A DNA stretch of 64,000 nt from Bacteroidia bacterium (GTDB lineage: Bacteria; Bacteroidota; Bacteroidia; UKL13-3). Below, in pieces: positions 1,204 to 11,829 of this stretch; within the stretch, counting starts at the first letter, position 1, and each line of letters opens with the position of its first letter. The notes below the pieces were generated by a model. The model was not told the origin of the DNA and did not search any database. It saw only the letters and a program-made list of their open reading frames with translations. A program made the position numbers and the translations under genes. Where the stretch lies: the NCBI GenBank assembly GCA_041665785.1, contig JBAYIE010000020.1, forward strand, positions 14,789-78,788, in the 5' to 3' direction.

Positions 1204-1219
1204 GTTTTATTGAAAGACA

Positions 1220-1227
1220 CAAAGGTA
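1220..1227 (-). promoter_or_regulatory. Bacteroidota sigma-A -7 box (TACCTTTG on the minus strand)
   Basis: Matches the TAnnTTTG consensus, 16 nt upstream of the desaturase ATG. Confidence 0.35.
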
Positions 1228-1574
1228 CGCAGGAATTCCTGAATATTGCATAAAAGTTACTTGCACCATTTGGTAATTAACCTGATTACCATACCGTTGT
1301 AGTATGTCAGATTTTTTAAAGCTTTACTCCCTCTGACGAATGTTTTTCTCTTTTAAAACAGATACCGATGGGTTTGGGTATTGAGATGCTTATTGCTGTA
1401 TTTAACAGAGACACAGAATTTACCAAAGCCATTGCATCATGAAATTATTGAGCTTCAAGACGATAGGTTTGAAATTTTTAAAGATCTCTTAATCTGCTAG
1501 TTACATTGTGCAAAAAGTGAGTATAACTGCTCATGTGCCGGTTCTATCTTGCCATAAGATAAAACGAAAAAAGT

Positions 1575-4226
1575 ATGCTTACCAGACTGATTGTATTGAA
1601 CTCAAAAGTGTATGGCAAAGCCGAAATCCGGTTAAACGATTGCGACTCGCTGCAATTGGTAGGCCCGAACAATATCGGTAAAAGTACGCTCATTTATGCC
1701 CTCAATTTCCTCTTTATTATTGATGGAAATAAAATGACGTTCAGCGGCCAACGTAAAGGTGACAAAGAAACCATTCACCATTACTTTCCAAACCATAACC
1801 AGAGTTATATTGTATTTGAAATTTTCAAAAAATCATATTACTCCATCATTGTAAAACGCGATTCGGAAGGTAACCTGGAATACTACCGGTTTGAAAGCGA
1901 GTACAAAGAAGAGTTTTTCATTGATCCGGATAAAAAGCTGCTCAAGTTTGATGAGGTGCAGGCACGCATTGCCTCTGCCGGACTGGAGTTAACACCGTTT
2001 AAAGACAAGCGCGAAGTTTTCAATACCGTATACCAGCGCGGAAAGCGCAACAACGGTGTGGTTTGGCTGGAAGATACGGTGAAAAGCGACGGGTTAAGCA
2101 ATAATTTCTCGCGCATTTACCGTTACCTGATCAATACCAAACTGATCAACAACAAAAACCTGAAAGAGGCTTTGATTGTAGCCGATAACCGCGAAAATGA
2201 AACCCTGAATTTCTCGCAGAAAAACAAAAAAGATATTCAGGATCTGATGAAGGTAAACAGCGAGATCCGCAATATCCGGTCGGTTAAAAACGAATTCGAC
2301 GAGTTTCGTGAAGCGGTGAGTCAATATGGTGCCAAGGCGCGGATCATCAGTCAATTGTTCGACGGATTTACACGGAGTTATGCTGAATCTCTTCCTTCCT
2401 TGCAAACTCAACTGATTGAGCGCGATAAAAATATAGGCAAGTTAAAAACGGAAGTCAACGAGGAGTTGATTCCGGAAAAAGCAGAACTCGACCGGAAAAT
2501 TGGTGGTAAGGATGCCGAAATTCAAGCCAAAGCGCATGTTCTGAACGAAAAAGAAATTGAAATCAAAACCATCAATTCGTTTGAGCCGGAGAATATCTTA
2601 AAAGAACAATTGGCCAATCACGATCTGAAGCGTAAAGAAATTGAATCGCGCATTACGATGGTAGAAATGCAAAAATTGAGTACCCCTCAGATTGAGCATC
2701 GTCTGGCTACCCTGAAAGAACAGATTACGCGCTACGAAGGTCAGTTAAAGAATTACAACGACCTGCTCATCAATAAAATTTCAGGTACCATCGAAAACCG
2801 AAAACTGTTAAACTCCATCCTGAGCGAACAGGTATTGAGTTTACCCAGTGATCAGGTACTGAAGAAAATCAAGAAGATCAGCGAATCGCTGAATATTTTT
2901 GACGGAGAAATCGACATTTCAAAAAATCTGGAGATCCGCGATTTTAAATCGGTAGAAGAAATCAAGGAAGAATTAAACGGCACCAAACAGGAACGCGCCA
3001 ACCTAGAAGGTTTATTGAAGGTGGTAAGCGCATTTGAGGCAGCCCAGACTGAATTGGCCGGTATCAACAACCAGATCGAAACCATCCGCATGAAACTGGT
3101 TAAGATTAAATCGAAACCTGCTTTAACCAAAGCGCTCGATAAATTGAAAGCTGAAATAAATGAACTGAGCGCAAGCAAAGAAAAATATGAACACGAGCAG
3201 CGCATCATCAGCAAGAAAATAGCGCAGAAATCGAATGAATTGCAGGAAATCGTAGAGGATAAAAAGAAACGCGAAGACCGCATCAAACAAATCATGGATT
3301 TTAAACGTGAGCTGGATGAGCTGGGAATTGCACCCGAAGCATACGAAACCAGTGAAAGTCTTGATCAGTTGTACAACAAGATCATACTGAATCAGCGCGA
3401 TCGCGATTTGCTCAAAGTCAACAAAGACAAGCTGTTTGATAAACTGCGCGATAAGCTGCAAAGCACCTATGCCGATGAACAGGAGTTTATCGATTATGTA
3501 GAAGAAGAAGTGGCTCTGGTAGAAGAAAAAGAACGCAGCATCATGGCCTTGCTCGAGAGTATCTCTACCCAATTTGCAAATCCGGCATACGCCTTATTAA
3601 AACGTTACGAAGAGTTCAAGGAATTTGTTTACAATAAATTCAACCAGAAACTGGCACAGACACGCATTTCCGATATTGAATCGCTGACCATTGAGTTGAT
3701 GGACAACAAGCGTCTGGTGGAAGAAGTACGTAAGATCAGCCAGATTCAGACCATCAAAGGACAATTGATGTTTGAGTTTGATACTTCGGAAAATCTGAAG
3801 ATTCTGAATAACTATCTCGACTCGGGTAAGAAAATAGATTTCGACGATTTGTTTGATATCACCCTTCACCTGAGCAAAAAAGGAACCACCAAGCCTGTGG
3901 ATCTCAGCGAGCAAATCGAATCGGATGGTACCGATAAAATGATTCGTCTGGTTATTATTATGAGTATCATCAATCGTCTGGCCATCAACGATGATGAAAA
4001 CCGCATTGCACTCTTTATTGATGAGGTGGCTACGATCGACAAACAGAACCGGCCTGAATTGGTGCGCTTCTGCCGCGAACATCATTTCATTCCGATCTTT
4101 GCAGCTCCGGATGCCGTTCCGGGATTTGGAAAATACTATTTCATTTATCCGAGTCCGGGCAAAATCAATATCAACGAAAAGCTCAATGCGATTTACGGTG
4201 AGAAGAACGAAACAGCCAACGCTTAA
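1575..4226 (+). CDS. SMC/MukB-like ATPase with a long coiled coil (head, coiled coil, head)
   Basis: 883 aa. Walker A GPNNIGKST (nt 1662-1688). About 600 aa of E/K/L-rich helical sequence. Signature-like ESDGTDKM, then Walker B ALFIDE (nt 4008-4025). First gene of a tightly packed three-gene set. Confidence 0.75.
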   Translation: MLTRLIVLNSKVYGKAEIRLNDCDSLQLVGPNNIGKSTLIYALNFLFIIDGNKMTFSGQRKGDKETIHHYFPNHNQSYIVFEIFKKSYYSIIVKRDSEGNLEYYRFESEYKEEFFIDPDKKLLKFDEVQARIASAGLELTPFKDKREVFNTVYQRGKRNNGVVWLEDTVKSDGLSNNFSRIYRYLINTKLINNKNLKEALIVADNRENETLNFSQKNKKDIQDLMKVNSEIRNIRSVKNEFDEFREAVSQYGAKARIISQLFDGFTRSYAESLPSLQTQLIERDKNIGKLKTEVNEELIPEKAELDRKIGGKDAEIQAKAHVLNEKEIEIKTINSFEPENILKEQLANHDLKRKEIESRITMVEMQKLSTPQIEHRLATLKEQITRYEGQLKNYNDLLINKISGTIENRKLLNSILSEQVLSLPSDQVLKKIKKISESLNIFDGEIDISKNLEIRDFKSVEEIKEELNGTKQERANLEGLLKVVSAFEAAQTELAGINNQIETIRMKLVKIKSKPALTKALDKLKAEINELSASKEKYEHEQRIISKKIAQKSNELQEIVEDKKKREDRIKQIMDFKRELDELGIAPEAYETSESLDQLYNKIILNQRDRDLLKVNKDKLFDKLRDKLQSTYADEQEFIDYVEEEVALVEEKERSIMALLESISTQFANPAYALLKRYEEFKEFVYNKFNQKLAQTRISDIESLTIELMDNKRLVEEVRKISQIQTIKGQLMFEFDTSENLKILNNYLDSGKKIDFDDLFDITLHLSKKGTTKPVDLSEQIESDGTDKMIRLVIIMSIINRLAINDDENRIALFIDEVATIDKQNRPELVRFCREHHFIPIFAAPDAVPGFGKYYFIYPSPGKININEKLNAIYGEKNETANA

Positions 4227-4236
4227 ACCCTGACCC

Positions 4237-5439
4237 ATGAGAGCAGAACCAAAAAGTATATTGTTCTTCCTGTATAATTACTACGACATTATCAAGTCGT
4301 TGTTCGATATGCAGTCGCGGGAAGGGTTTGTGAAAAAGGAGAAAATGCAGGCCGCCTTCAAGGATTTTGATTCGAATATTCTGCAACAATTGCTCGAATA
4401 TAAAATCGTAAAGAAACTCGGCGACGATTTCGAAATCCGTGGTGTGTATTTCAATTTTCTCGAATTCATCATGAGTGAATTCAGGCCTTTGTTGCCCGAA
4501 ACCATTGAGAAATATGAGCACTCCATCTCTACCCTCTTCCGTAAGATAAAAGAAGGCATAGGTAAAGACCGGTTGATTCTGGGACAACGCATCAGCGACC
4601 TGTACAACGAAATCAAGGAATTTGCGGAAGCGGTTGAAAAAAATACCATTCGCTTACTAGCCGAAACACGCGAGTTGAAATCGAATGTAGATAAGATTGA
4701 TTACCGCGAAAAGGTGCGAAAAGCATCGTTTTGGATCGACTATTATATTACACCGCTCAATACCATTCTGGACATTAACCAGGAACGTTCAATCACCAAT
4801 AAGCTGTTCGATATTTCCAATTTTGTCAATATCCGTCGCCTCAATTTTGATGATGAACCTACCCGTCAGCAATTTGAAAAACTCTATGTGTTTCTGGTGC
4901 AATCCAACGACGAATTGTTGAAACAATCGAAAGTACTGACCAACGAATTGCTTCCACTGATCGATCGGATACGCACAGAATCGCTGATCCTGACCGGTTT
5001 TATCGAATTCCTGAAAACTCCGTACAAATCTCCATTACCAAAGGTGTTCAAGTTGTACCGCAATTATCCTTACAGCAACGATATGTATTTCAATGCCATG
5101 GAATATGTAGAACAATTTGCCAACGAAGAAACCATCATCATCGACGATACGCTGAATGAAGCAGAAATGTGGGTATTCAACAAAGAAAAATACCGTCACG
5201 AAATGATGGCTGCCCTTCCCATTCCGAATTATTTTGAATGGGCAGGCAAGCGACTCAAAGCAGAATACAAAAACCTGGAGACCGACAAGTTTTTTGCACT
5301 CAGCAGTTTGTTGTTTGAAGATGGCATTGATCTGGAAGTGGATCCCAAATCAGACCGGCAGGTAATCAAAACCTCTCAAATGAATTTACGCGTACCAAAA
5401 ATTAAAATAACTAAAGATGGACTTTCCAAGATATCATAA
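4237..5439 (+). CDS. hypothetical helical protein; possible kleisin-like (MukF/MksF/JetA-position) partner of the SMC-like ATPase
   Basis: 400-aa ORF starting 11 nt after the SMC-like stop. It overlaps the next gene by 23 nt. Function is inferred only from operon context and the helical, wHTH-like N-terminal composition. Confidence 0.6.
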   Translation: MRAEPKSILFFLYNYYDIIKSLFDMQSREGFVKKEKMQAAFKDFDSNILQQLLEYKIVKKLGDDFEIRGVYFNFLEFIMSEFRPLLPETIEKYEHSISTLFRKIKEGIGKDRLILGQRISDLYNEIKEFAEAVEKNTIRLLAETRELKSNVDKIDYREKVRKASFWIDYYITPLNTILDINQERSITNKLFDISNFVNIRRLNFDDEPTRQQFEKLYVFLVQSNDELLKQSKVLTNELLPLIDRIRTESLILTGFIEFLKTPYKSPLPKVFKLYRNYPYSNDMYFNAMEYVEQFANEETIIIDDTLNEAEMWVFNKEKYRHEMMAALPIPNYFEWAGKRLKAEYKNLETDKFFALSSLLFEDGIDLEVDPKSDRQVIKTSQMNLRVPKIKITKDGLSKIS

Positions 5440-5995
5440 AGACATTGTAGGTGATTTGCTGGATGGCAAATTCATTCTGGCCAGCGATGGCAAATTTGTT
5501 GAAATTAAAAACAACGAAGATTTTTATACCAAATTCTTCAAGGAAAGTTTTGGATTTGAGTTGGAAGTACGCAGCGATTATGCGTTTATCCTTTCCAACG
5601 AAACCAACGAACAACTCAGTCGCGACATATGCATTTTCTTTGGAATCCTGTGTTATGAGCTCGACAAAGACAGCAAGAATTTCATGGAAGAAATTCAATA
5701 TGCCGAATTTGAGCTGGAAAAAATTGATGAATACTTCGATAATTCAGCTTATGCGGAGTTGATTCAAAACAACAAACAATTGCGCGACAGCGAATCACGA
5801 AAACAGTTTATCGGTACACTCAACAGGCGTAATATTATTGACCGCATTTCGGATACCAAATTTTCATTTACGCAGGCATATAAAGTGTTTGTAGATTTTG
5901 CGATGGATTTTGCGCGCGGCCGGTTGAGTCAGCAGGCAGCCCATGCCCAGCAGGAAGCCGAGCATAACAATCCGTTTGTGGAAGAGGGAATGTAA
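5417..5995 (+). CDS. hypothetical small acidic protein; possible MukE/MksE/JetB-like (KITE) subunit
   Basis: 192 aa, ATG at 5417 overlapping the upstream stop (5437-5439). The segment KFFKESFGFELEVRSDYAFILSNE and the acidic C-terminus resemble MukE/JetB-type proteins from memory. Not verified by HMM. Confidence 0.55.
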   Translation: MDFPRYHKDIVGDLLDGKFILASDGKFVEIKNNEDFYTKFFKESFGFELEVRSDYAFILSNETNEQLSRDICIFFGILCYELDKDSKNFMEEIQYAEFELEKIDEYFDNSAYAELIQNNKQLRDSESRKQFIGTLNRRNIIDRISDTKFSFTQAYKVFVDFAMDFARGRLSQQAAHAQQEAEHNNPFVEEGM

Positions 5996-6128: not shown

Positions 6129-8549
6129 ATGAATACCACATTAAGTAACAGCAAACAACTTGTAAAATTTACGGCAAAATTCATTGCGACTTGCATCAGG
6201 GCGCTGATTTTCTTTATAGCTTTTCCGGTATTTGCACAAGATGGAACACAAACCATTCGTGGAACCGTATTGGACCGTGATAGCCGGCAGCCCTTAATCG
6301 GTGCATCTGTAACCGTATTGAACGGTAAGATAGATGGTGGTACGCTAACTGATGAGCATGGCAATTTTAAGCTTACAGGCATTTCGCTGGGTCGCAAAAC
6401 CATAAAGGTTACCTATATCGGATATGAAGCCGTAACACAGCCGGATATTATAGTTACCGCAGCCAAAGAAATTGTTTTGAATCTGACTATGGTGGAATCG
6501 GTGACAAAAATGGATGAAGTAACAATTCGATATGATCGACGCAAAGATCCAACGGTCACCAACAATGAAATGACGGTTATTAGTTCACGTTCATTCAACC
6601 CGGACGACACCAAAAAATTCGCTGGTTCGATGGGAGATCCAAGCCGGATGGCTGCGAATTTTGCCGGGGTTGTTGCCGGCAACGACAGCCGCAACGATAT
6701 CGTAGTAAGGGGCAACTCCCCCAACTCCATGTTATGGCAATTGGAGGGTGTAAACATTCCGAACCCGAATCATTTTGGCAGCAGCTTTAATACAGGTGGT
6801 CCGGTAAGTATGCTCAATGCCAACAATATTGGCAAGAGCGACTTTTTTACCAGTGCATTCCCGGCGCAGTATGGCAACGCCAATGGGGGTGTTTTTGACC
6901 TTGTGATGCGAGAAGGCAACAATGAGAAACGGGAATATATCGGTCAAATCGGATTCAATGGATTTGAACTGGGTGCTGAAGGTCCTTTCAGTGCGAAGTC
7001 AAAAGCTTCTTTTATGTTCAATTACCGTTATTCAACCATCGGGTTGATGAATAAAGTCGGGATCAATGTAGGTACCGGTGCAGCCGTTCCTTTGTATCAG
7101 GATTTGAACTTTAAAGTAGTTCTTCCGGTAGGCAAAAAGGGTAAGATTGCTCTGTGGGGAATGGGTGGCATGAGTTCTATTGATTTATTGGCAAGAGACG
7201 TTGATACGACAGATATTAATTTTTATGGTTCCAAGAACATGAACTCACGACCGCGTTACCGAACAGCGGTTGGTGGTATCAGTTACGAAAGAAACTTGTC
7301 GAAACAGACCTGGGCTCGTGCTTCAGTGGCCATGAGTGAAGTGTATAGCGAATACAAAACAGATAGCATTGCTACTTTACTGCCGGTTGAAGTTGCCTAT
7401 CCGAAAGCCTTTGGCCAGTTCGCCGACCGCAAGCTTTCTGCTGTATTGAACCTGACCCATAAAATCAATGCGAAAAATGTTATACATGCCGGTTTTTCGC
7501 ACGATTTAACCCTGATTGATTACTTCAACAAAAGTGTATACAATATGGGGACCGTTGATTCTGTGGTGGTCGACCGCGAAGAACAAATCAACCTGACACA
7601 AACTTATTTACAGTGGAAACACAGGGTGAATGCGCTGCTTACCATCAATCTGGGGATCCATATGCAATACCTGGATCAAAACAAACAATTTGTAGCAGAA
7701 CCCCGACTGGGCGTTCGTTATGCCTTAAATCATCATTCCAACTTAAACCTTGGTTATGGTTTGCATCATCAGAGCCTACCGGTTTACAATTATTTCGTTC
7801 GCAATGATCAGGGAGCGGAAACAAACCGGGAATTAAAATTCATTCGCTCCAATCACCTGGTATTGGGTTATGAAAATATGCTCACACAGCATTTCAACTT
7901 TAAAATAGAAGGATATTATCAATACCTTGATCAGGTACCGGTAGAAATACAAGCAAGCTCATACTCCACCTTGAATGTAGGCGCCTCTTTTGACCCGAGC
8001 AATGCGGCCGATTTAGTAAGTACGGGAACGGGTTATAATTTAGGAACGGAAATCACACTTGAACGTTTTTATCACAAAGGTTTCTATTTGCTGATAACCG
8101 GATCGGTGTTTGAAAGTAAATACAAAGGCAGTGATGGCATCTGGAGAAATACTGCATTCAATACCAATTATGCGGCGAATGTGTTGGGTGGTAAAGAGTT
8201 CAAGCCCGGAAATAAAAGCAGCGTGTACTTTATAAATATCAAAACAACTACGGTTGGTGGCAGATACATTACTCCCATAGATCCTGTTGCTTCACAATTG
8301 AATCAACGTGCGGTATATGATTACAGCCGATCATACAGCAGCAAGCAGGCTCCCTATTTTCGCATTGACTTGAAGGTTGGTTACCGCAAAGACTATAAGA
8401 GAAGTTCTATGGAATTTGCCATTGATTTTCAAAACATCACCAACCACAAAAATATTTTTAGTCAGGGTTACGACAAATACCGTAATGCCATTGTATCCAA
8501 TTACCAGCAAGGATTTTTCCCGGTACCCATGTTTCGTTTCACATTCTGA
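6129..8549 (+). CDS. TonB-dependent receptor with a CarboxypepD_reg-like N-terminal domain
   Basis: Signal peptide (…FIAFPVFAQDG). CarboxypepD_reg-like IRGTVLDRDSRQPLIGASVTVLNG…TDEHGNFKL. Plug and beta-barrel length are right. C-terminal aromatic FRFTF. Confidence 0.85.
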   Translation: MNTTLSNSKQLVKFTAKFIATCIRALIFFIAFPVFAQDGTQTIRGTVLDRDSRQPLIGASVTVLNGKIDGGTLTDEHGNFKLTGISLGRKTIKVTYIGYEAVTQPDIIVTAAKEIVLNLTMVESVTKMDEVTIRYDRRKDPTVTNNEMTVISSRSFNPDDTKKFAGSMGDPSRMAANFAGVVAGNDSRNDIVVRGNSPNSMLWQLEGVNIPNPNHFGSSFNTGGPVSMLNANNIGKSDFFTSAFPAQYGNANGGVFDLVMREGNNEKREYIGQIGFNGFELGAEGPFSAKSKASFMFNYRYSTIGLMNKVGINVGTGAAVPLYQDLNFKVVLPVGKKGKIALWGMGGMSSIDLLARDVDTTDINFYGSKNMNSRPRYRTAVGGISYERNLSKQTWARASVAMSEVYSEYKTDSIATLLPVEVAYPKAFGQFADRKLSAVLNLTHKINAKNVIHAGFSHDLTLIDYFNKSVYNMGTVDSVVVDREEQINLTQTYLQWKHRVNALLTINLGIHMQYLDQNKQFVAEPRLGVRYALNHHSNLNLGYGLHHQSLPVYNYFVRNDQGAETNRELKFIRSNHLVLGYENMLTQHFNFKIEGYYQYLDQVPVEIQASSYSTLNVGASFDPSNAADLVSTGTGYNLGTEITLERFYHKGFYLLITGSVFESKYKGSDGIWRNTAFNTNYAANVLGGKEFKPGNKSSVYFINIKTTTVGGRYITPIDPVASQLNQRAVYDYSRSYSSKQAPYFRIDLKVGYRKDYKRSSMEFAIDFQNITNHKNIFSQGYDKYRNAIVSNYQQGFFPVPMFRFTF

Positions 8550-8587
8550 GATTGGATGAAATTATATAATCCGATAAATTGCTTCAT

Positions 8588-9640
8588 ATGAGAGCCAGCA
8601 ACGGACGCTTTATTCCCGGCATTTTAAATCCACGTGATCTGCTTATCCGTCACCTGATCATTCTGGCAATGTCTGTGTTTTTTGGTACGTTGAGTACACT
8701 CAGCAAAGGTGCAGAGTGGTTTTCTGCAGAATGGGCCGTAAGCACCAGTTTTAATTTCATTTATATCGCTTCGATCTGGAATGGGGATATGCTTTTAATA
8801 CGTTTGCTATTGCACCGTTTAAGCTGGGAAAATCAGGCCAGGAAACTCATCATCGGTCTGGCATTAATTTCCATCATTTGGCCGGTTGTAACACATTACC
8901 TTTTTAACCTGATTATTTTCCCTGTTTTACATGGTCACCCTTGTTCCCTGCACTCTAAAGAAAACATAAATTCACTGATCATTTCGGTTACCATTACCTT
9001 ATTGGTAAATACCATTTTTGCAGCTATCACTTTCTTTTATTCCTGGAGACGCTCGATGAATGAAAAAGAAGTACTTAAACGGGAAGGATTAACTGCTGAA
9101 TTTGAAACCCTCAAAAGCCAGATAAACCCACATTTTCTTTTCAACTCGTTAAATACATTGACCAGCCTGATAGAAGAAAACAAGGCAACGGCAACAGAAT
9201 TTGTACAGCAACTGGCTGGTGTTTACAGGTATGTACTTACGCAAAAAGACAAAGATCTGGTTACCCTGCGTGAAGAGTTGAACTTTGTCAATGCCTATAT
9301 CTATCTGAATCAGATTCGATTTGGCGAAAATCTGAAAATAGAAATACAGGTGGATCCAAAGCTTCTGGAGAAAAAACTGGTTACCCTTTCCTTGCAAATG
9401 CTCATCGAAAATGCAATTAAACACAATATCATTTCGACACAGCGTCCACTTACCATTCGAATAGAGACCAACGAAAATCAGGTAGTTGTGAGCAATAACC
9501 TGCAACGTAAAACGGTGATGCACGAAAGCAATGGAATAGGATTAAACAATATTGCACATCGCTATAGTTTGCTTTCCAAACTGGAAGTTGATATTTCGGA
9601 CGATGGATTCCAATTCACGGTTGCATTACCTTTAATTTAG
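8588..9640 (+). CDS. sensor histidine kinase, LytS/YehU family
   Basis: Multi-pass membrane N-terminus, the His_kinase motif NPHFLFNSLNTL, and a C-terminal ATPase region. Sits directly upstream of a LytTR regulator. ATG at 8588 (the ORF-track TTG is at 8579). Confidence 0.85.
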   Translation: MRASNGRFIPGILNPRDLLIRHLIILAMSVFFGTLSTLSKGAEWFSAEWAVSTSFNFIYIASIWNGDMLLIRLLLHRLSWENQARKLIIGLALISIIWPVVTHYLFNLIIFPVLHGHPCSLHSKENINSLIISVTITLLVNTIFAAITFFYSWRRSMNEKEVLKREGLTAEFETLKSQINPHFLFNSLNTLTSLIEENKATATEFVQQLAGVYRYVLTQKDKDLVTLREELNFVNAYIYLNQIRFGENLKIEIQVDPKLLEKKLVTLSLQMLIENAIKHNIISTQRPLTIRIETNENQVVVSNNLQRKTVMHESNGIGLNNIAHRYSLLSKLEVDISDDGFQFTVALPLI

Positions 9641-9647
9641 CAGAAGT

Positions 9648-10409
9648 ATGAGAATAGTGATTCTGGAAGACGAGGGTCCTGCACTGACACGGATTCAAAA
9701 TCTGGTTCGTGAAATTGTTCCCGACATTGATATTGCCGGTTCTGCAGACAGTATCGTTTCTGCTATTGACCTTTTCTCCAAAACGAAAGATATAGATCTG
9801 GCCCTGATGGATATTGAACTGGCCGATGGACAGAGTTTCGAAATATTCACACGCATAAAAATTCCCTGTCCGGTTATTTTCACAACAGCCTACGATGAGT
9901 ATGCGTTGAAAGCGTTTAAACTAAACAGCATTGATTATCTGTTAAAACCCATCGACAAGAAAGAAATGCAAAAAGCGTTTGATAAATTTAGATATTTACA
10001 TGGAAAGGGACAACCGCAACAAAGCCATATTGAGAGCCTTCTTGCGAATCTTAGCATAAAGCAACAAAACCATAAAACCCGGTTTTTGGTTAAGGCCGGT
10101 ACCAAGCTTTTGTCTATTTCAACTGATGAGATTGCCTATTTTCATGCCATCGACAAAGCGGTGTGGTTGCATACCAGAGACAACCGGAAATACCCCATGG
10201 ACCAATCGTTGGACGAAATAAACAAGAAACTAGATCCGTTGTGTTTTTTCCAATTGAACCGTCAATTTTTAACGCATTTCCAGTCCATTCAACAAATCCA
10301 TACTTACTTTAACGGCAAGCTTAAAGTAGAATTGAAACCTGAGATGACGGAAGAAGTTATTGTGAGTCGCGAGCGTGCACCGGAGTTCAAGCAGTGGCTT
10401 GATCGCTGA
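9648..10409 (+). CDS. LytTR-family response regulator
   Basis: Receiver domain (MRIVILEDE…MDIELADG) followed by a C-terminal LytTR-type DNA-binding region. Starts 8 nt after the kinase gene. Confidence 0.88.
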   Translation: MRIVILEDEGPALTRIQNLVREIVPDIDIAGSADSIVSAIDLFSKTKDIDLALMDIELADGQSFEIFTRIKIPCPVIFTTAYDEYALKAFKLNSIDYLLKPIDKKEMQKAFDKFRYLHGKGQPQQSHIESLLANLSIKQQNHKTRFLVKAGTKLLSISTDEIAYFHAIDKAVWLHTRDNRKYPMDQSLDEINKKLDPLCFFQLNRQFLTHFQSIQQIHTYFNGKLKVELKPEMTEEVIVSRERAPEFKQWLDR

Positions 10410-10510
10410 TTGTCCGGACTCTTTATCGCATCTGCTTCGCTGCAACAATCCTGCCATTTGAACTAATTTCAGGCAGTACATCTTCTTGCATTTTTAAAAC
10501 CCAAAGGTGC

Positions 10511-10518
10511 TATATTTG
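10511..10518 (+). promoter_or_regulatory. Bacteroidota -7 box TATATTTG
   Basis: Matches TAnnTTTG, 26 nt upstream of the pirin ATG. Confidence 0.35.
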
Positions 10519-10543
10519 TTATACCACATAAACCCCTTCTGCC

Positions 10544-11692
10544 ATGCGTGAATCCTTACCCAGAAGAAATTTTCTAACCCGGTTGTCGCTGGCTTTTGCT
10601 GCAGCCGTTACTGCACCGGTGAATGCCTTTTCCAATACCATCCGGGCAATCGATCCATTAAGTGCTGATCATATGAATCCCATCAAATCTATAAAACGGC
10701 TCGGTTTTCAATGGGAAACTGCCGATCCCTTTCTATTTTGTGTACACCACGAAGACCGGTTCCCTAAAGGCAATGCGGAATGCGGACCACCTTCGTCGAT
10801 GCTGCAGGGGCGTTCGATGGGTGATGATTTTATCATCAAAGATGGTTTCAGAATGTATCATGGAAAAAGAGTGCCGGGGTTTCCCGGACATCCGCACCGG
10901 GGTTTTGAGACCATTACGGTGGTTCGAAACGGACTGGTAGACCATGCCGACTCCATGGGTGCATCGGGTCGTTATGGAAACGGCGATGTGCAGTGGATGA
11001 CAGCAGGCAAAGGCGTGCAACACTCGGAGATGTTTCCTTTGTTGAAGATGGATGCCGAAAATCCACTGGAATTGTTTCAGATCTGGCTCAATCTTCCCGC
11101 CAAACAAAAAATGGTGAAGCCTCATTTCAAGATGCTATGGGCCGAAAGTATTCCGAATGCTGAATTCAAGGATTTAGCAAACAAAAAAACACGGATTGAA
11201 GTGATTGCAGGAAAGCTTGGCAAATTTCAGGCTTCTGCGCCTCCACCCGATTCATGGGCGGCTGATCCTGATCATGAAGTAGCCATATGGAATATAAAAA
11301 TGGAAGCCGGTGCAACCTGGAACCTTCCCGCAGCTTCGGCCGGGATTAATCGCACCCTCTTTTATTACGAGGGTGAAAAATTGCAAATAAACGGACAACC
11401 CATTCCCTCTTATCATGCAGTGGAATTGGCTTCAACGGTGGAAGTCATATTAACAGCCGGAAATACCGGTGCGAGCATTTTAATGTTGCAGGGTAAACCC
11501 ATTGGAGAACCTGTTGTGCAATACGGTCCATTTGTGATGAATACCAAAGAAGAGATCCATCAGGCCTTTGAAGATTATAACCGCGATCAATTTGGCGGTT
11601 GGCCATGGCCAAGGTACGATCAGGTGCATCCGCGCAGCAAATCCCGTTTTGCCCGGCATGCTGATGGGCGGGAGGAAATTAAGCAGGGGTAA
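10544..11692 (+). CDS. pirin-family protein with a twin-arginine (Tat) signal
   Basis: N-terminal RRNFLTRLSLAFAAAVTAPVNAF. Cupin metal motif HPHRGFETITVV, then …QWMTAGKGVQHSE. Confidence 0.85.
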   Translation: MRESLPRRNFLTRLSLAFAAAVTAPVNAFSNTIRAIDPLSADHMNPIKSIKRLGFQWETADPFLFCVHHEDRFPKGNAECGPPSSMLQGRSMGDDFIIKDGFRMYHGKRVPGFPGHPHRGFETITVVRNGLVDHADSMGASGRYGNGDVQWMTAGKGVQHSEMFPLLKMDAENPLELFQIWLNLPAKQKMVKPHFKMLWAESIPNAEFKDLANKKTRIEVIAGKLGKFQASAPPPDSWAADPDHEVAIWNIKMEAGATWNLPAASAGINRTLFYYEGEKLQINGQPIPSYHAVELASTVEVILTAGNTGASILMLQGKPIGEPVVQYGPFVMNTKEEIHQAFEDYNRDQFGGWPWPRYDQVHPRSKSRFARHADGREEIKQG

Positions 11693-11829
11693 AAATCAGC
11701 TAAACTACTGCTGTATGTCATAGTCTTCCATAACATGGGGTTATAACTTTATGCCTGGAATATTGCCTTTGTGTAGTCGCTGAATTGCGTTCAATCAGAA
11801 AATGCAGTATTCCTTAAAACACCTGAAAT

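What the first reader, a model, noticed from the sequence alone, without database searches (positions are those of the whole stretch)
1575..5995. Compact SMC-like / kleisin-sized / MukE-like three-gene operon with permuted order and no nuclease partner
**Seen in the sequence**
- Three co-directional genes are packed with an 11-nt gap and a 23-nt overlap.
- Gene 1 (883 aa) has Walker A GPNNIGKST (nt 1662-1688), about 600 aa of E/K/L-rich coiled-coil-like sequence, a signature-like ESDGTDKM and Walker B ALFIDE (nt 4008-4025). This is the SMC/MukB/Rad50 head, coiled-coil, head layout.
- It has no CxxC zinc hook. The mid-protein break (around ...SGTIENRKLLNSILSEQVLSLPSDQV...) is too short for a canonical SMC hinge.
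- Gene 3 (192 aa, acidic tail) contains KFFKESFGFELEVRSDYAFILS.

**Inference**
- From memory, that gene 3 segment resembles MukE/MksE/JetB (KITE) proteins.
- Gene 2 (400 aa, helical) sits where a MukF/MksF/JetA kleisin would be expected.

**Departures from described systems (established knowledge)**
- MukBEF/MksBEF operons run F-E-B and Wadjet runs jetABCD. Here the ATPase comes first.
- The ATPase is much shorter than MukB (about 1480 aa in E. coli) and shorter than the >1000 aa typical of MksB/JetC.
- No JetD/MksG Toprim gene is adjacent. The flanking genes are a desaturase and a TonB receptor.
- Bacteroidota normally use Smc-ScpAB for chromosome condensation.

This therefore looks like an accessory, minimal SMC complex of unknown role. 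It could act in plasmid restriction without a dedicated nuclease, in DNA organisation, or as a Lamassu-like sensor.
Basis: partly seen in the sequence, partly recalled or inferred. Interest (0 to 1): 0.8.

Follow-up and report, generated by a model that had tools for sequence, protein, structure and literature searches.

The report
Nuclease-less compact Wadjet-type SMC operon
These three genes encode a miniature DNA-looping (SMC-type) complex from a previously undescribed Bacteroidota branch of the Wadjet anti-plasmid family; this genome has lost the family's DNA-cutting subunit but keeps the other three genes under very strong selection.

Summary
Three tightly packed co-directional genes lie at 1575-5995, with the stated motifs.

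**What the genes are**
- g1 (883 aa) folds like MukB and JetC.
- g2 (400 aa) has the kleisin domain layout, and its four best PDB fold matches are JetA or MukF chains.
- g3 (192 aa) is a full-length Pfam MksE (KITE) match, E = 2.6e-22.

**Main new result: the trio is a derivative of a four-gene cassette.**
- More than 80 species-level loci across Bacteroidota carry g1, a 264-aa Toprim protein (weak but recurrent JetD matches), g2 and g3, in that order.
- In the window the nuclease gene is absent. Only 10 nt separate g1 and g2, and no D-like ORF occurs anywhere in the 64 kb.
- In the window's own freshwater clade only four sampled loci keep D. Their D proteins group together in the D tree, which implies repeated D loss.
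- One near-identical pair of loci differs only by a clean deletion of D.

**Selection and mobility**
- D-less trios show dN/dS of about 0.01-0.05, against 0.04-0.15 in D-bearing cassettes.
- D-less trios sit among housekeeping genes, and their tree follows the local gene order.
- A D-bearing sister clade has moved between bacterial classes.

**Most likely function:** a loop-extruding SMC complex repurposed for host DNA organisation or non-cutting control of foreign DNA, as proposed for MksBEF. This is a new variant of a known kind. The function is inferred, not shown.

The parts
1575..4226 (+). g1: MukB/JetC-class SMC-like ATPase, 883 aa, with short coiled-coil arms. N-terminal head about residues 1-210, arms about 215-396 and 460-695, small apex about 397-459, C-terminal head about 700-883.
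   Evidence: ORF. AlphaFold2 model. Foldseek against PDB gives MukB (7nyw_B) at 5.4e-14, then Rad50 at 1e-10, then JetC chains (9qxx, 8q72_A, 8dk2) at 1e-8 to 1e-7. hhalign aligns residues 800-856 with E. coli MukB 1390-1447 at 32% identity, E = 9e-4. Pfam gives only sub-threshold AAA_29 and AAA_21 hits.
1662..1688 (+). Walker A / P-loop, GPNNIGKST (g1 residues 30-38).
   Evidence: Read from the sequence. N32, G35 and K36 are invariant in 18 diverse family members, and the motif is conserved across 103.
2763..2951 (+). Apex or mini-hinge region of g1 (residues about 397-459). Two short helices replace a canonical SMC hinge. The conserved FDGxI motif lies at residues 442-446.
   Evidence: Secondary structure and low pLDDT in the AlphaFold2 model. 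G444 is invariant, I446 is nearly invariant, and F442/D443 are conserved in at least 95% of 103 members.
3918..3941 (+). Signature-like motif ESDGTDKM (g1 residues 782-789).
   Evidence: S783, G785 and T786 are invariant across the family.
4008..4025 (+). Walker B, ALFIDE (g1 residues 812-817). The MukB-like 'FAAP' segment follows downstream.
   Evidence: D816 and E817 are invariant. This segment aligns to the MukB C-terminal head.
4227..4236 (+). The 10-nt g1-g2 junction. In canonical relatives a roughly 800-bp gene for a JetD-like Toprim protein (D) sits at this position. It is deleted here.
   Evidence: D lies between g1 and g2 in L010, L024 and L042 (window clade) and in all sister-clade loci, and in 65 of 76 further loci. 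L010 and L012 differ by a clean deletion. A D profile finds nothing in the whole window; best E = 0.35.
4237..5439 (+). g2: kleisin of the MukF/JetA type, 400 aa. N-terminal winged helix about residues 5-67, helical bundle about 87-260, disordered linker 264-313, C-terminal winged helix about 316-393.
   Evidence: AlphaFold2 model, pLDDT 69. The top four Foldseek PDB hits are 8q72_E (JetABCD), 9gm7_C and 9gm9_D (MukBEF) and 3rpu_B (MukE-MukF), with E from 3e-3 to 4e-2. No Pfam, PADLOC or NCBIfam hit. Always encoded between g1 (or D) and g3.
5417..5995 (+). g3: KITE subunit of the MksE/JetB family, 192 aa. It overlaps g2 by 23 nt.
   Evidence: Pfam PF21980 MksE, E = 2.6e-22, covering profile positions 2-162 of 163. 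All 24 diverse homologues hit MksE, and 3 also hit DUF4194/JetB.
1204..1574 (+). Upstream intergenic region, presumed to hold the operon promoter (not demonstrated).
   Evidence: This is the only sizeable non-coding stretch next to the operon. The sigma-70-type promoter and terminator scans gave counts within about one standard deviation of the shuffled expectation.

Best explanation
**Identity.** The operon encodes a three-subunit SMC complex of the MukBEF/MksBEF/Wadjet class.
- g1 is the ATPase with short coiled-coil arms, presumably a homodimer.
- g2 is the kleisin that bridges the ATPase heads.
- g3 is the KITE subunit, presumably bound to the kleisin linker.

**Origin.** It is a nuclease-less derivative of a compact four-gene cassette specific to Bacteroidota. 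The cassette order is JetC-like, JetD-like Toprim, JetA-like, JetB-like. In this genome the Toprim gene has been cleanly deleted from the g1-g2 junction.

**Mechanism (inferred).**
- The complex still binds and hydrolyses ATP, because its catalytic motifs are intact.
- It entraps DNA and extrudes loops, as MukBEF and JetABC do.
- Without the nuclease it cannot cut what it captures.

**Role (inferred).** It appears to have been repurposed, as proposed for Pseudomonas MksBEF. My rough estimates are:
- about 0.45 for organising or segregating host DNA;
- about 0.3 for compacting or excluding small circular DNA without cleavage, or working with an unlinked nuclease.

**Shown versus inferred.**
- Shown: subunit identities at Pfam or fold level, the four-gene ancestry, repeated D loss, and strong purifying selection.
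- Inferred: complex assembly, loop extrusion, and the cellular role.
For: **Subunit identities**
- g3 is Pfam MksE.
- g1's best fold matches are MukB, then Rad50, then JetC. Its Walker B to 'AAP' segment is MukB-like.
- g2 has a kleisin layout and its top four fold hits are JetA or MukF chains.
- ATPase motifs are invariant across 103 family members.

**Four-gene ancestry**
- A D gene lies between g1 and g2 in the sister clade and in L010, L024 and L042.
- 65 of 76 further loci, spread across Bacteroidota, are full C-D-A-B cassettes.
- D hits Pfam JetD_C in 7 of 9 members, best E = 5e-6, and PADLOC JetD1 at 2.4e-5.
- D has invariant CxVEN and DYD motifs.

**Loss rather than gain of D**
- D proteins of the window clade (L010, L024, L042 and L131) group together in the D tree, and that grouping mirrors the cassette tree.
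- D identities scale with g1-g3 identities.
- L010 and L012 are 92-93% identical in DNA and differ by a precise deletion of D.

**Still functional**
- dN/dS is 0.01-0.05 for all three genes in D-less pairs, against 0.04-0.15 for g1, g2 and D in D-bearing cassettes.

**Resident, not mobile**
- The cassette tree matches the flanking-synteny groups.
- Neighbours are housekeeping genes: dapB, lepB, aroC, topA and aroA.
- No copy was found on plasmids, phages or viral contigs.

**Precedent**
Against: - No sequence-level link joins g1 or g2 to solved Wadjet or MukBEF proteins. Profile searches against PDB sequences found nothing, and hhalign against E. coli MukF and MukE was null.
- g2's fold matches have marginal E-values (3e-3 to 4e-2) and low TM-scores.
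- The heads of the g1 model have low confidence.
- All JetD matches for D fall below the curated thresholds.
- Nothing tested here shows a chromosomal role.
- I could not check whether this lineage has Smc-ScpAB, or a Toprim gene elsewhere in the genome.
- On raw event counts, three or four D gains would be more parsimonious than about fourteen losses.
Confidence: 0.75

Rival explanations
1. The trio is still a dedicated defence system against plasmids or other mobile DNA. It acts either without cleavage (compaction, silencing or exclusion of small circles, as proposed for Smc5/6) or with a nuclease encoded elsewhere in the genome.
For: Its nearest relatives are four-gene cassettes with a JetD-like Toprim. 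A sister clade of these has moved between bacterial classes as a self-contained 5-kb unit. Some copies sit beside an HNH restriction-type nuclease. Four sampled members of the window's own clade still carry D.
Against: No D-like ORF occurs in the 64-kb window. The two complete D-less genomes were not among the D hits, though that test relied on exact peptide patterns and is weak. No partner gene is conserved across the synteny groups. Constraint is stronger than in D-bearing cassettes. Inheritance is vertical and in place, among housekeeping genes. That pattern is atypical for defence genes.
Confidence: 0.3
2. g1 is an ATPase of another SMC-like class (Lamassu LmuB, Rad50/SbcC, RecN, or OLD/AAA_21/PARIS AriA), and its two partners are unrelated to kleisin and KITE proteins.
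For: Weak hits exist: PADLOC AriA at 3.7e-7 and Pfam AAA_21 at 1.6e-3 over the P-loop region. A relative of g1 hits LmuB at 1.9e-5. Rad50 ranks fifth and sixth in the Foldseek list.
Against: g3 is a full-length MksE. g2's top fold hits are JetA and MukF chains. MukB ranks above Rad50 by fold. The C-terminal head segment matches MukB. g1 has no zinc hook, and no Mre11/SbcD, LmuA or LmuC neighbour was seen.
Confidence: 0.04
3. The trio is an inactive remnant of a degraded defence cassette.
For: The nuclease gene is gone.
Against: All three ORFs are intact in about 50 species. dN/dS is 0.01-0.05 at dS 0.4-2.2. Catalytic motifs are invariant.
Confidence: 0.02

Closest known systems
Wadjet (JetABCD / MksBEFG / EptABCD), types I-III
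   Same: In the family's canonical form the four roles are the same: a MukB-like SMC ATPase, a MukF-like kleisin, a KITE protein and a Toprim nuclease. The fold-level matches are to JetC and JetA. g3-family members hit MksE, and some also hit JetB/DUF4194. D hits JetD_C and PADLOC JetD1.
   Different: - Gene order is C-D-A-B, not A-B-C-D.
- Three subunits are clearly smaller: g1 is 883 aa against 1119 aa for PA14 JetC (length); the nuclease is about 264 aa against a 382-position PADLOC JetD1 profile; g2 is 400 aa against a 466-residue JetABCD chain, 8q72_E.
- Pfam and PADLOC JetA, JetB and JetC models do not recognise g1-g3 above threshold.
- The family was found only in Bacteroidota and Ignavibacteriales-labelled genomes.
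- In the window the nuclease is absent.
MksBEF of Pseudomonas aeruginosa (a Wadjet relative without MksG)
   Same: It is a three-subunit MukBEF-like complex without a nuclease. [quoted passage not shown]
   Different: The loss event is independent and lies in a very distant branch. The order is ATPase-first rather than mksF-E-B. The ATPase is shorter. A chromosomal role is not shown here.
MukBEF of Enterobacteria
   Same: MukB is the best fold match for g1 (E = 5e-14). MukF chains are among g2's top hits. The Walker B to 'AAP' segment is shared.
   Different: E. coli MukB is 1486 aa, against 883 aa for g1. hhalign finds no detectable similarity to E. coli MukF or MukE. The gene order differs (mukF-E-B).

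Membership tests
Wadjet (JetABCD) | SMC-like ATPase of the MukB/JetC class | tested here: met
   Foldseek gives MukB at 5e-14 and JetC chains at 1e-8 to 1e-7. The C-terminal head aligns to MukB at E = 9e-4. Walker A, signature and Walker B motifs are conserved. This holds at fold and motif level only.
Wadjet (JetABCD) | MukF/JetA-type kleisin (N-terminal winged helix, helical bundle, linker, C-terminal winged helix) | tested here: met
   The AlphaFold2 domain layout matches. The top four PDB fold hits are JetA or MukF chains; the 9gm7_C match has probability 0.99, and E-values run from 3e-3 to 4e-2. Met at fold level only, with marginal scores.
Wadjet (JetABCD) | KITE subunit (JetB/MksE) | tested here: met
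   Pfam MksE at 2.6e-22, full length. 24 of 24 relatives match, and 3 also hit DUF4194/JetB.
Wadjet (JetABCD) | JetD Toprim nuclease encoded in the operon | tested here: not met
   Absent from the window: the g1-g2 gap is 10 nt and no D-like ORF occurs in 64 kb. A weakly JetD-like gene is present in relatives.
Wadjet (JetABCD) | Operon order jetA-jetB-jetC-jetD | tested here: not met
   The order is C-A-B in the window and C-D-A-B in relatives.
Wadjet (JetABCD) | Recognised by the family's sequence models for JetA, JetB and JetC (Pfam, PADLOC) | tested here: not met
   g2 and g3 have no PADLOC hit, and g1 hits JetC1 only at E = 0.018. None of 52 g2-family members has a consistent Pfam hit. One close g1 homologue (P0358) carries a precomputed PF12128 hit.
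Wadjet (JetABCD) | Restriction of small circular DNA | not testable with these tools
   Requires transformation or plasmid-stability assays.
MksBEF (nuclease-less) | ATPase, kleisin and KITE genes with no MksG/JetD gene | tested here: met
MksBEF (nuclease-less) | Role in chromosome organisation or segregation | not testable with these tools
   Only indirect support: dN/dS of about 0.02, vertical inheritance in place, and housekeeping neighbours.
MukBEF | Sequence homology to MukF and MukE, and a MukB of about 1480 aa | tested here: not met
   hhalign against E. coli MukF and MukE is null. g1 is 883 aa, against 1486 aa for E. coli MukB.
Smc-ScpAB | SMC_N and SMC hinge domains, with ScpA and ScpB partners | tested here: not met
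   No Pfam SMC_N, SMC_hinge, ScpA or ScpB hit at E <= 1. The apex is only about 60 residues.
Lamassu (LmuABC) | LmuB SMC-like protein with an LmuA effector and an LmuC partner | tested here: not met
   The window's g1 hits LmuB at E = 0.69. The partners are a kleisin and a KITE protein. No effector gene is conserved nearby.
Rad50/SbcCD | CxxC zinc hook and an adjacent Mre11/SbcD nuclease | tested here: not met
   g1 has no CxxC. No such neighbour was seen in the annotated or conserved flanks.

The most novel reading that the evidence does not exclude
The Bacteroidota C-D-A-B cassettes would be a fourth, miniaturised type of Wadjet, with half-length arms and a Toprim-only JetD. The window's freshwater lineage would show that system being domesticated: the nuclease lost again and again, while the SMC core is fixed under housekeeping-level constraint as a chromosome-organising condensin. 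This core might be one of the 'unidentified SMC complexes' invoked for Bacteroidota. It would be a living intermediate for the proposed defence-to-condensin origin of MukBEF and MksBEF.
Probability: 0.35. Interest if true: 0.8.

Novelty: new variant of a known kind. Interest (0 to 1): 0.65.

Why it matters
**Origin of MukBEF and MksBEF.** Reviews speculate that these chromosomal complexes descend from Wadjet-like defence systems through loss of the nuclease (PMC10586767). Here that transition appears to have happened many times within one clade. Near-identical loci with and without D (L010 and L012) give matched natural controls, so the hypothesis becomes directly testable.

**How arm length relates to function.** The family is a very compact SMC machine, with arms of roughly half the usual length, a tiny apex and a 264-aa nuclease. 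This could show how arm length relates to loop extrusion and to the size-sensing of circular DNA.

**Bacteroidota chromosome biology.** It is a candidate SMC complex for Bacteroidota, in which one Hi-C study found no known condensin (PMC10197239).

**Annotation gap.** The PADLOC models used here miss the system, so defence inventories of Bacteroidota built on them probably undercount it.

Tried and rejected
- **PDB sequence searches.** phmmer and profile searches with g1, g2, g3 and D, using narrow and then diverse alignments, returned only coiled-coil noise. No JetA, JetB or Muk chain appeared, and JetC appeared only at E = 0.36 on coiled coil.
- **hhalign against E. coli.** Family profiles against MukF and MukE were null. 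Only the MukB C-terminal head aligned.
- **NCBIfam.** Nothing useful.
- **Single distant g2 relatives.** P0455 and P0372 found no genome loci.
- **Mobile-element test.** tblastn of g2 from the window and from L062 found nothing on plasmids or phages, and the viral contig scan found nothing.
- **Promoter and terminator scans.** Counts were within about one standard deviation of the shuffled expectation, so they are uninformative.
- **Apparent large g1-g2 gaps.** In L036 and L047 these are runs of N or assembly breaks, not extra genes.
- **Decay hypothesis.** Rejected on dN/dS.
- **Lamassu, Rad50 and OLD-type readings.** Rejected on the identity of the partner genes.
- **Not possible here.** I could not test whether the lineage has Smc-ScpAB, because the genome scans were exhausted and only 10-kb flanks are readable. 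The Petrushenko 2011 MksBEF paper was not held.

Full report
**1. Observation**

The three ORFs are as described:
- g1: 1575-4226, 883 aa
- g2: 4237-5439, 400 aa
- g3: 5417-5995, 192 aa

All are on the + strand. The g2/g3 overlap is 23 nt. The motif coordinates check out against the translation: Walker A GPNNIGKST at 1662-1688, ESDGTDKM at 3918-3941 and Walker B ALFIDE at 4008-4025. g1 has no CxxC motif. The flanking genes are a fatty-acid desaturase and a TonB-dependent receptor. The rest of the window looks like an ordinary Bacteroidota chromosome, with TamB, type IX secretion cargo proteins and a Kup transporter.

**2. What the three proteins are**

- **g3** is a full-length match to Pfam PF21980 (MksE), E = 2.6e-22. 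All 24 diverse relatives match MksE, and three also match DUF4194/JetB.
- **g2** matches nothing in Pfam, PADLOC or NCBIfam. None of 52 members of its family has a consistent Pfam hit.
  - Its AlphaFold2 model (pLDDT 69) has an N-terminal winged helix, a long helical bundle, a 50-residue disordered linker and a C-terminal winged helix. That is the MukF/JetA kleisin layout.
  - Among 350,542 PDB chains, its four best Foldseek hits are 8q72_E (JetABCD), 9gm7_C and 9gm9_D (MukBEF) and 3rpu_B (MukE-MukF).
  - The E-values are marginal (3e-3 to 4e-2) and the TM-scores low, as expected for a flexible multi-domain protein.
- **g1** has only sub-threshold P-loop hits (AAA_29, AAA_21, AriA).
  - Its model has confident antiparallel coiled coils (about 215-396 and 460-695) around a roughly 60-residue apex, but poorly modelled heads.
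  - Its best Foldseek hits are MukB (5e-14), Rad50 (1e-10) and JetC chains (1e-8 to 1e-7), followed by condensin and Smc5/6.
  - hhalign aligns g1 residues 800-856 (Walker B to 'FAAP') with E. coli MukB 1390-1447 at 32% identity, E = 9e-4.
  - Walker A (N32, G35, K36), the signature-like S783/G785/T786 and Walker B D816/E817 are invariant across the family.
- **Sequence-level links are missing.** Profile searches against PDB sequences never retrieved JetA, JetB, MukE or MukF. hhalign against E. coli MukF and MukE was null. The links for g1 and g2 therefore rest on fold only.

**3. The trio travels as a unit**

A genome scan with g2 found 53 species-level loci. All are from uncultured, mostly freshwater Bacteroidia. 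Two come from complete genomes, OZ257140.1 and 'Bacteroidetes bacterium UKL13-3' CP012155.1. The g1-g2-g3 order is kept wherever the contig allows. The window's own flanking genes are shared only with L001. More distant metagenomic members show the same trio among aroA, dihydroorotase and ispH-type genes. The g2 family is small: 112 clusters among 1.84 billion representative proteins, and full-length members are all about 390-420 aa.

**4. A fourth gene in relatives**

- One 90%-identity cluster of g2 homologues is 43% identical to the window's g2. It contains proteins from Chryseobacterium, Aequorivita, Daejeonia and Chitinophagales.
- Its genomic loci also include Algoriphagus, Aquiflexum and Flavobacterium. 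They share 82-91% DNA identity over essentially the cassette alone (L062 positions 6555-11702), with unrelated flanks. Identity this high between different bacterial classes indicates horizontal transfer.
- In these loci a 264-aa ORF, here called D, sits between g1 and g2.
- D hits Pfam JetD_C in 7 of 9 members (best E = 5e-6) and also DUF7281. It hits PADLOC JetD1 over the Toprim part at 2.4e-5 and 9e-4. All of these are below the curated cut-offs.
- D has invariant CxVEN, HKYGR, VFxDYDxxGLxE and NRFLEQ motifs. The glutamate and the DxD fit a Toprim active site; that reading is my inference.
- A genome scan with the D alignment found 85 loci. They span Flavobacteriales, Cytophagales, Chitinophagales, Saprospiraceae, Sphingobacteriales and Bacteroidales.
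- Of the 76 newly fetched loci, 65 carry the full C-D-A-B cassette. The rest are cut by contig ends or frameshifts.
- The canonical form of the family is therefore a compact, Wadjet-like four-gene system in a permuted order.
- I found no description of such a type in the held literature. A 2023 review lists Wadjet types I-III only (PMC10586767).

**5. The window carries a nuclease-less state, reached repeatedly**

- In the window's clade, D is present only in L010, L024 and L042, and in L131 from the D scan.
- The window has only 10 nt at that junction. A D profile finds nothing in all six reading frames of the 64 kb.
- On the g2+g3 tree, the D-bearing tips are scattered among D-less tips.
- In the D tree, the window-clade D proteins group together with the same branching order as the cassette tree. 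D identities scale with g1-g3 identities.
- L024 shares its downstream neighbours with many D-less loci.
- L010 (with D) and L012 (without D) are 92-93% identical in DNA on both sides of a clean deletion of D.
- Together these points favour vertical inheritance of D with many independent losses: about 14 under a loss-only reading of the neighbour-joining tree. The alternative is three or four precise re-insertions, which raw event counts alone would favour.

**6. The D-less trio is functional and behaves like a resident gene set**

- In D-less pairs with unsaturated dS (about 0.4-2.2), dN/dS is 0.010-0.045 for all three genes.
- In D-bearing, horizontally mobile cassettes, dN/dS for g1, g2 and D is 0.04-0.16, typically 0.08-0.09 at dS 0.4-1.2.
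- Clades of the cassette tree coincide with flanking-synteny groups.
- In the largest group the neighbours are dapB and lepB upstream, and aroC, a secreted peptidase, topA and a transglutaminase-like gene downstream.
- No copy occurs in the plasmid, phage or viral-contig collections.

**7. Mechanism**

By homology with MukBEF and JetABC, I infer the following steps.
- g1 dimerises through its small apex.
- g2 bridges the head and neck of g1 and dimerises through its N-terminal winged helix.
- g3 dimers sit on the g2 linker.
- ATP turnover drives DNA entrapment and loop extrusion.
- In the four-gene form, D would cleave captured circular DNA, as JetD does.
- In the window there is no D, so the complex cannot cleave.

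The stronger constraint and the vertical, housekeeping-like genomic behaviour favour a repurposed role in host DNA organisation, as proposed for P. aeruginosa MksBEF. A non-nucleolytic role against mobile DNA, or an unlinked nuclease, remains plausible. None of this was tested directly.

**8. Verdict**

The feature is a new variant of a known kind: a Wadjet/MksBEF-class SMC complex. Identity and derivation are well supported (about 0.75-0.85). The cellular role is open.

Noticed in passing
L039:9384-10004 (between the g1 and g2 homologues): In one species of the window's clade, a 206-aa RDD-family membrane protein gene occupies the g1-g2 junction, the exact position where D sits in other loci.
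   Followed up: partly
L062:5700-6545; also L058 and L061 upstream of the cassette: A 281-aa HNH_2 endonuclease gene lies directly upstream of the four-gene cassette in three loci and is co-transferred with it. It hits PADLOC HNH at 1.5e-89 and a type II restriction-like model.
   Followed up: partly
L063 versus L064 and L073 (Algoriphagus, Aquiflexum): The cassettes are mosaics. g1 has dS of about 0.64-0.68 while g2 and g3 have dS of about 0.05-0.09 in the same pair of loci. This implies recombination inside the cassette.
   Followed up: no
L018:14860-17247 and 14 other loci of the same synteny group: DNA topoisomerase I (topA) lies three genes downstream of the trio, on the same strand, after aroC and a secreted M43 peptidase. 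Whether this linkage means anything is unknown.
   Followed up: no
L067 / L144 (CP058707.1): The D gene of this MAG chromosome is broken by frameshifts, and no intact g3 ORF was called there. This could be pseudogenisation or indel errors from long-read sequencing.
   Followed up: no
L002, L012, L042, L045, L060, L138 (record titles): Contigs carrying this Bacteroidota-type cassette are labelled Gemmatimonadaceae, Vulcanococcus, Bifidobacteriaceae, Oceanicaulis or Roseobacteraceae. These labels are probably mis-binning or mislabelling of MAGs rather than true hosts.
   Followed up: no
window 8579-10409: Downstream of the TonB-dependent receptor are two adjacent co-directional ORFs of 353 and 253 aa. 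From their sequences they look like a LytS-type histidine kinase and a LytTR response regulator. I did not run them against Pfam.
   Followed up: no
window 5930-5995 (g3 C-terminus): The acidic, Q/E-rich tail of g3 (...QQAAHAQQEAEHNNPFVEEGM) is confined to the window's immediate subclade, where g3 is 188-192 aa. In most relatives g3 is about 170-182 aa.
   Followed up: no
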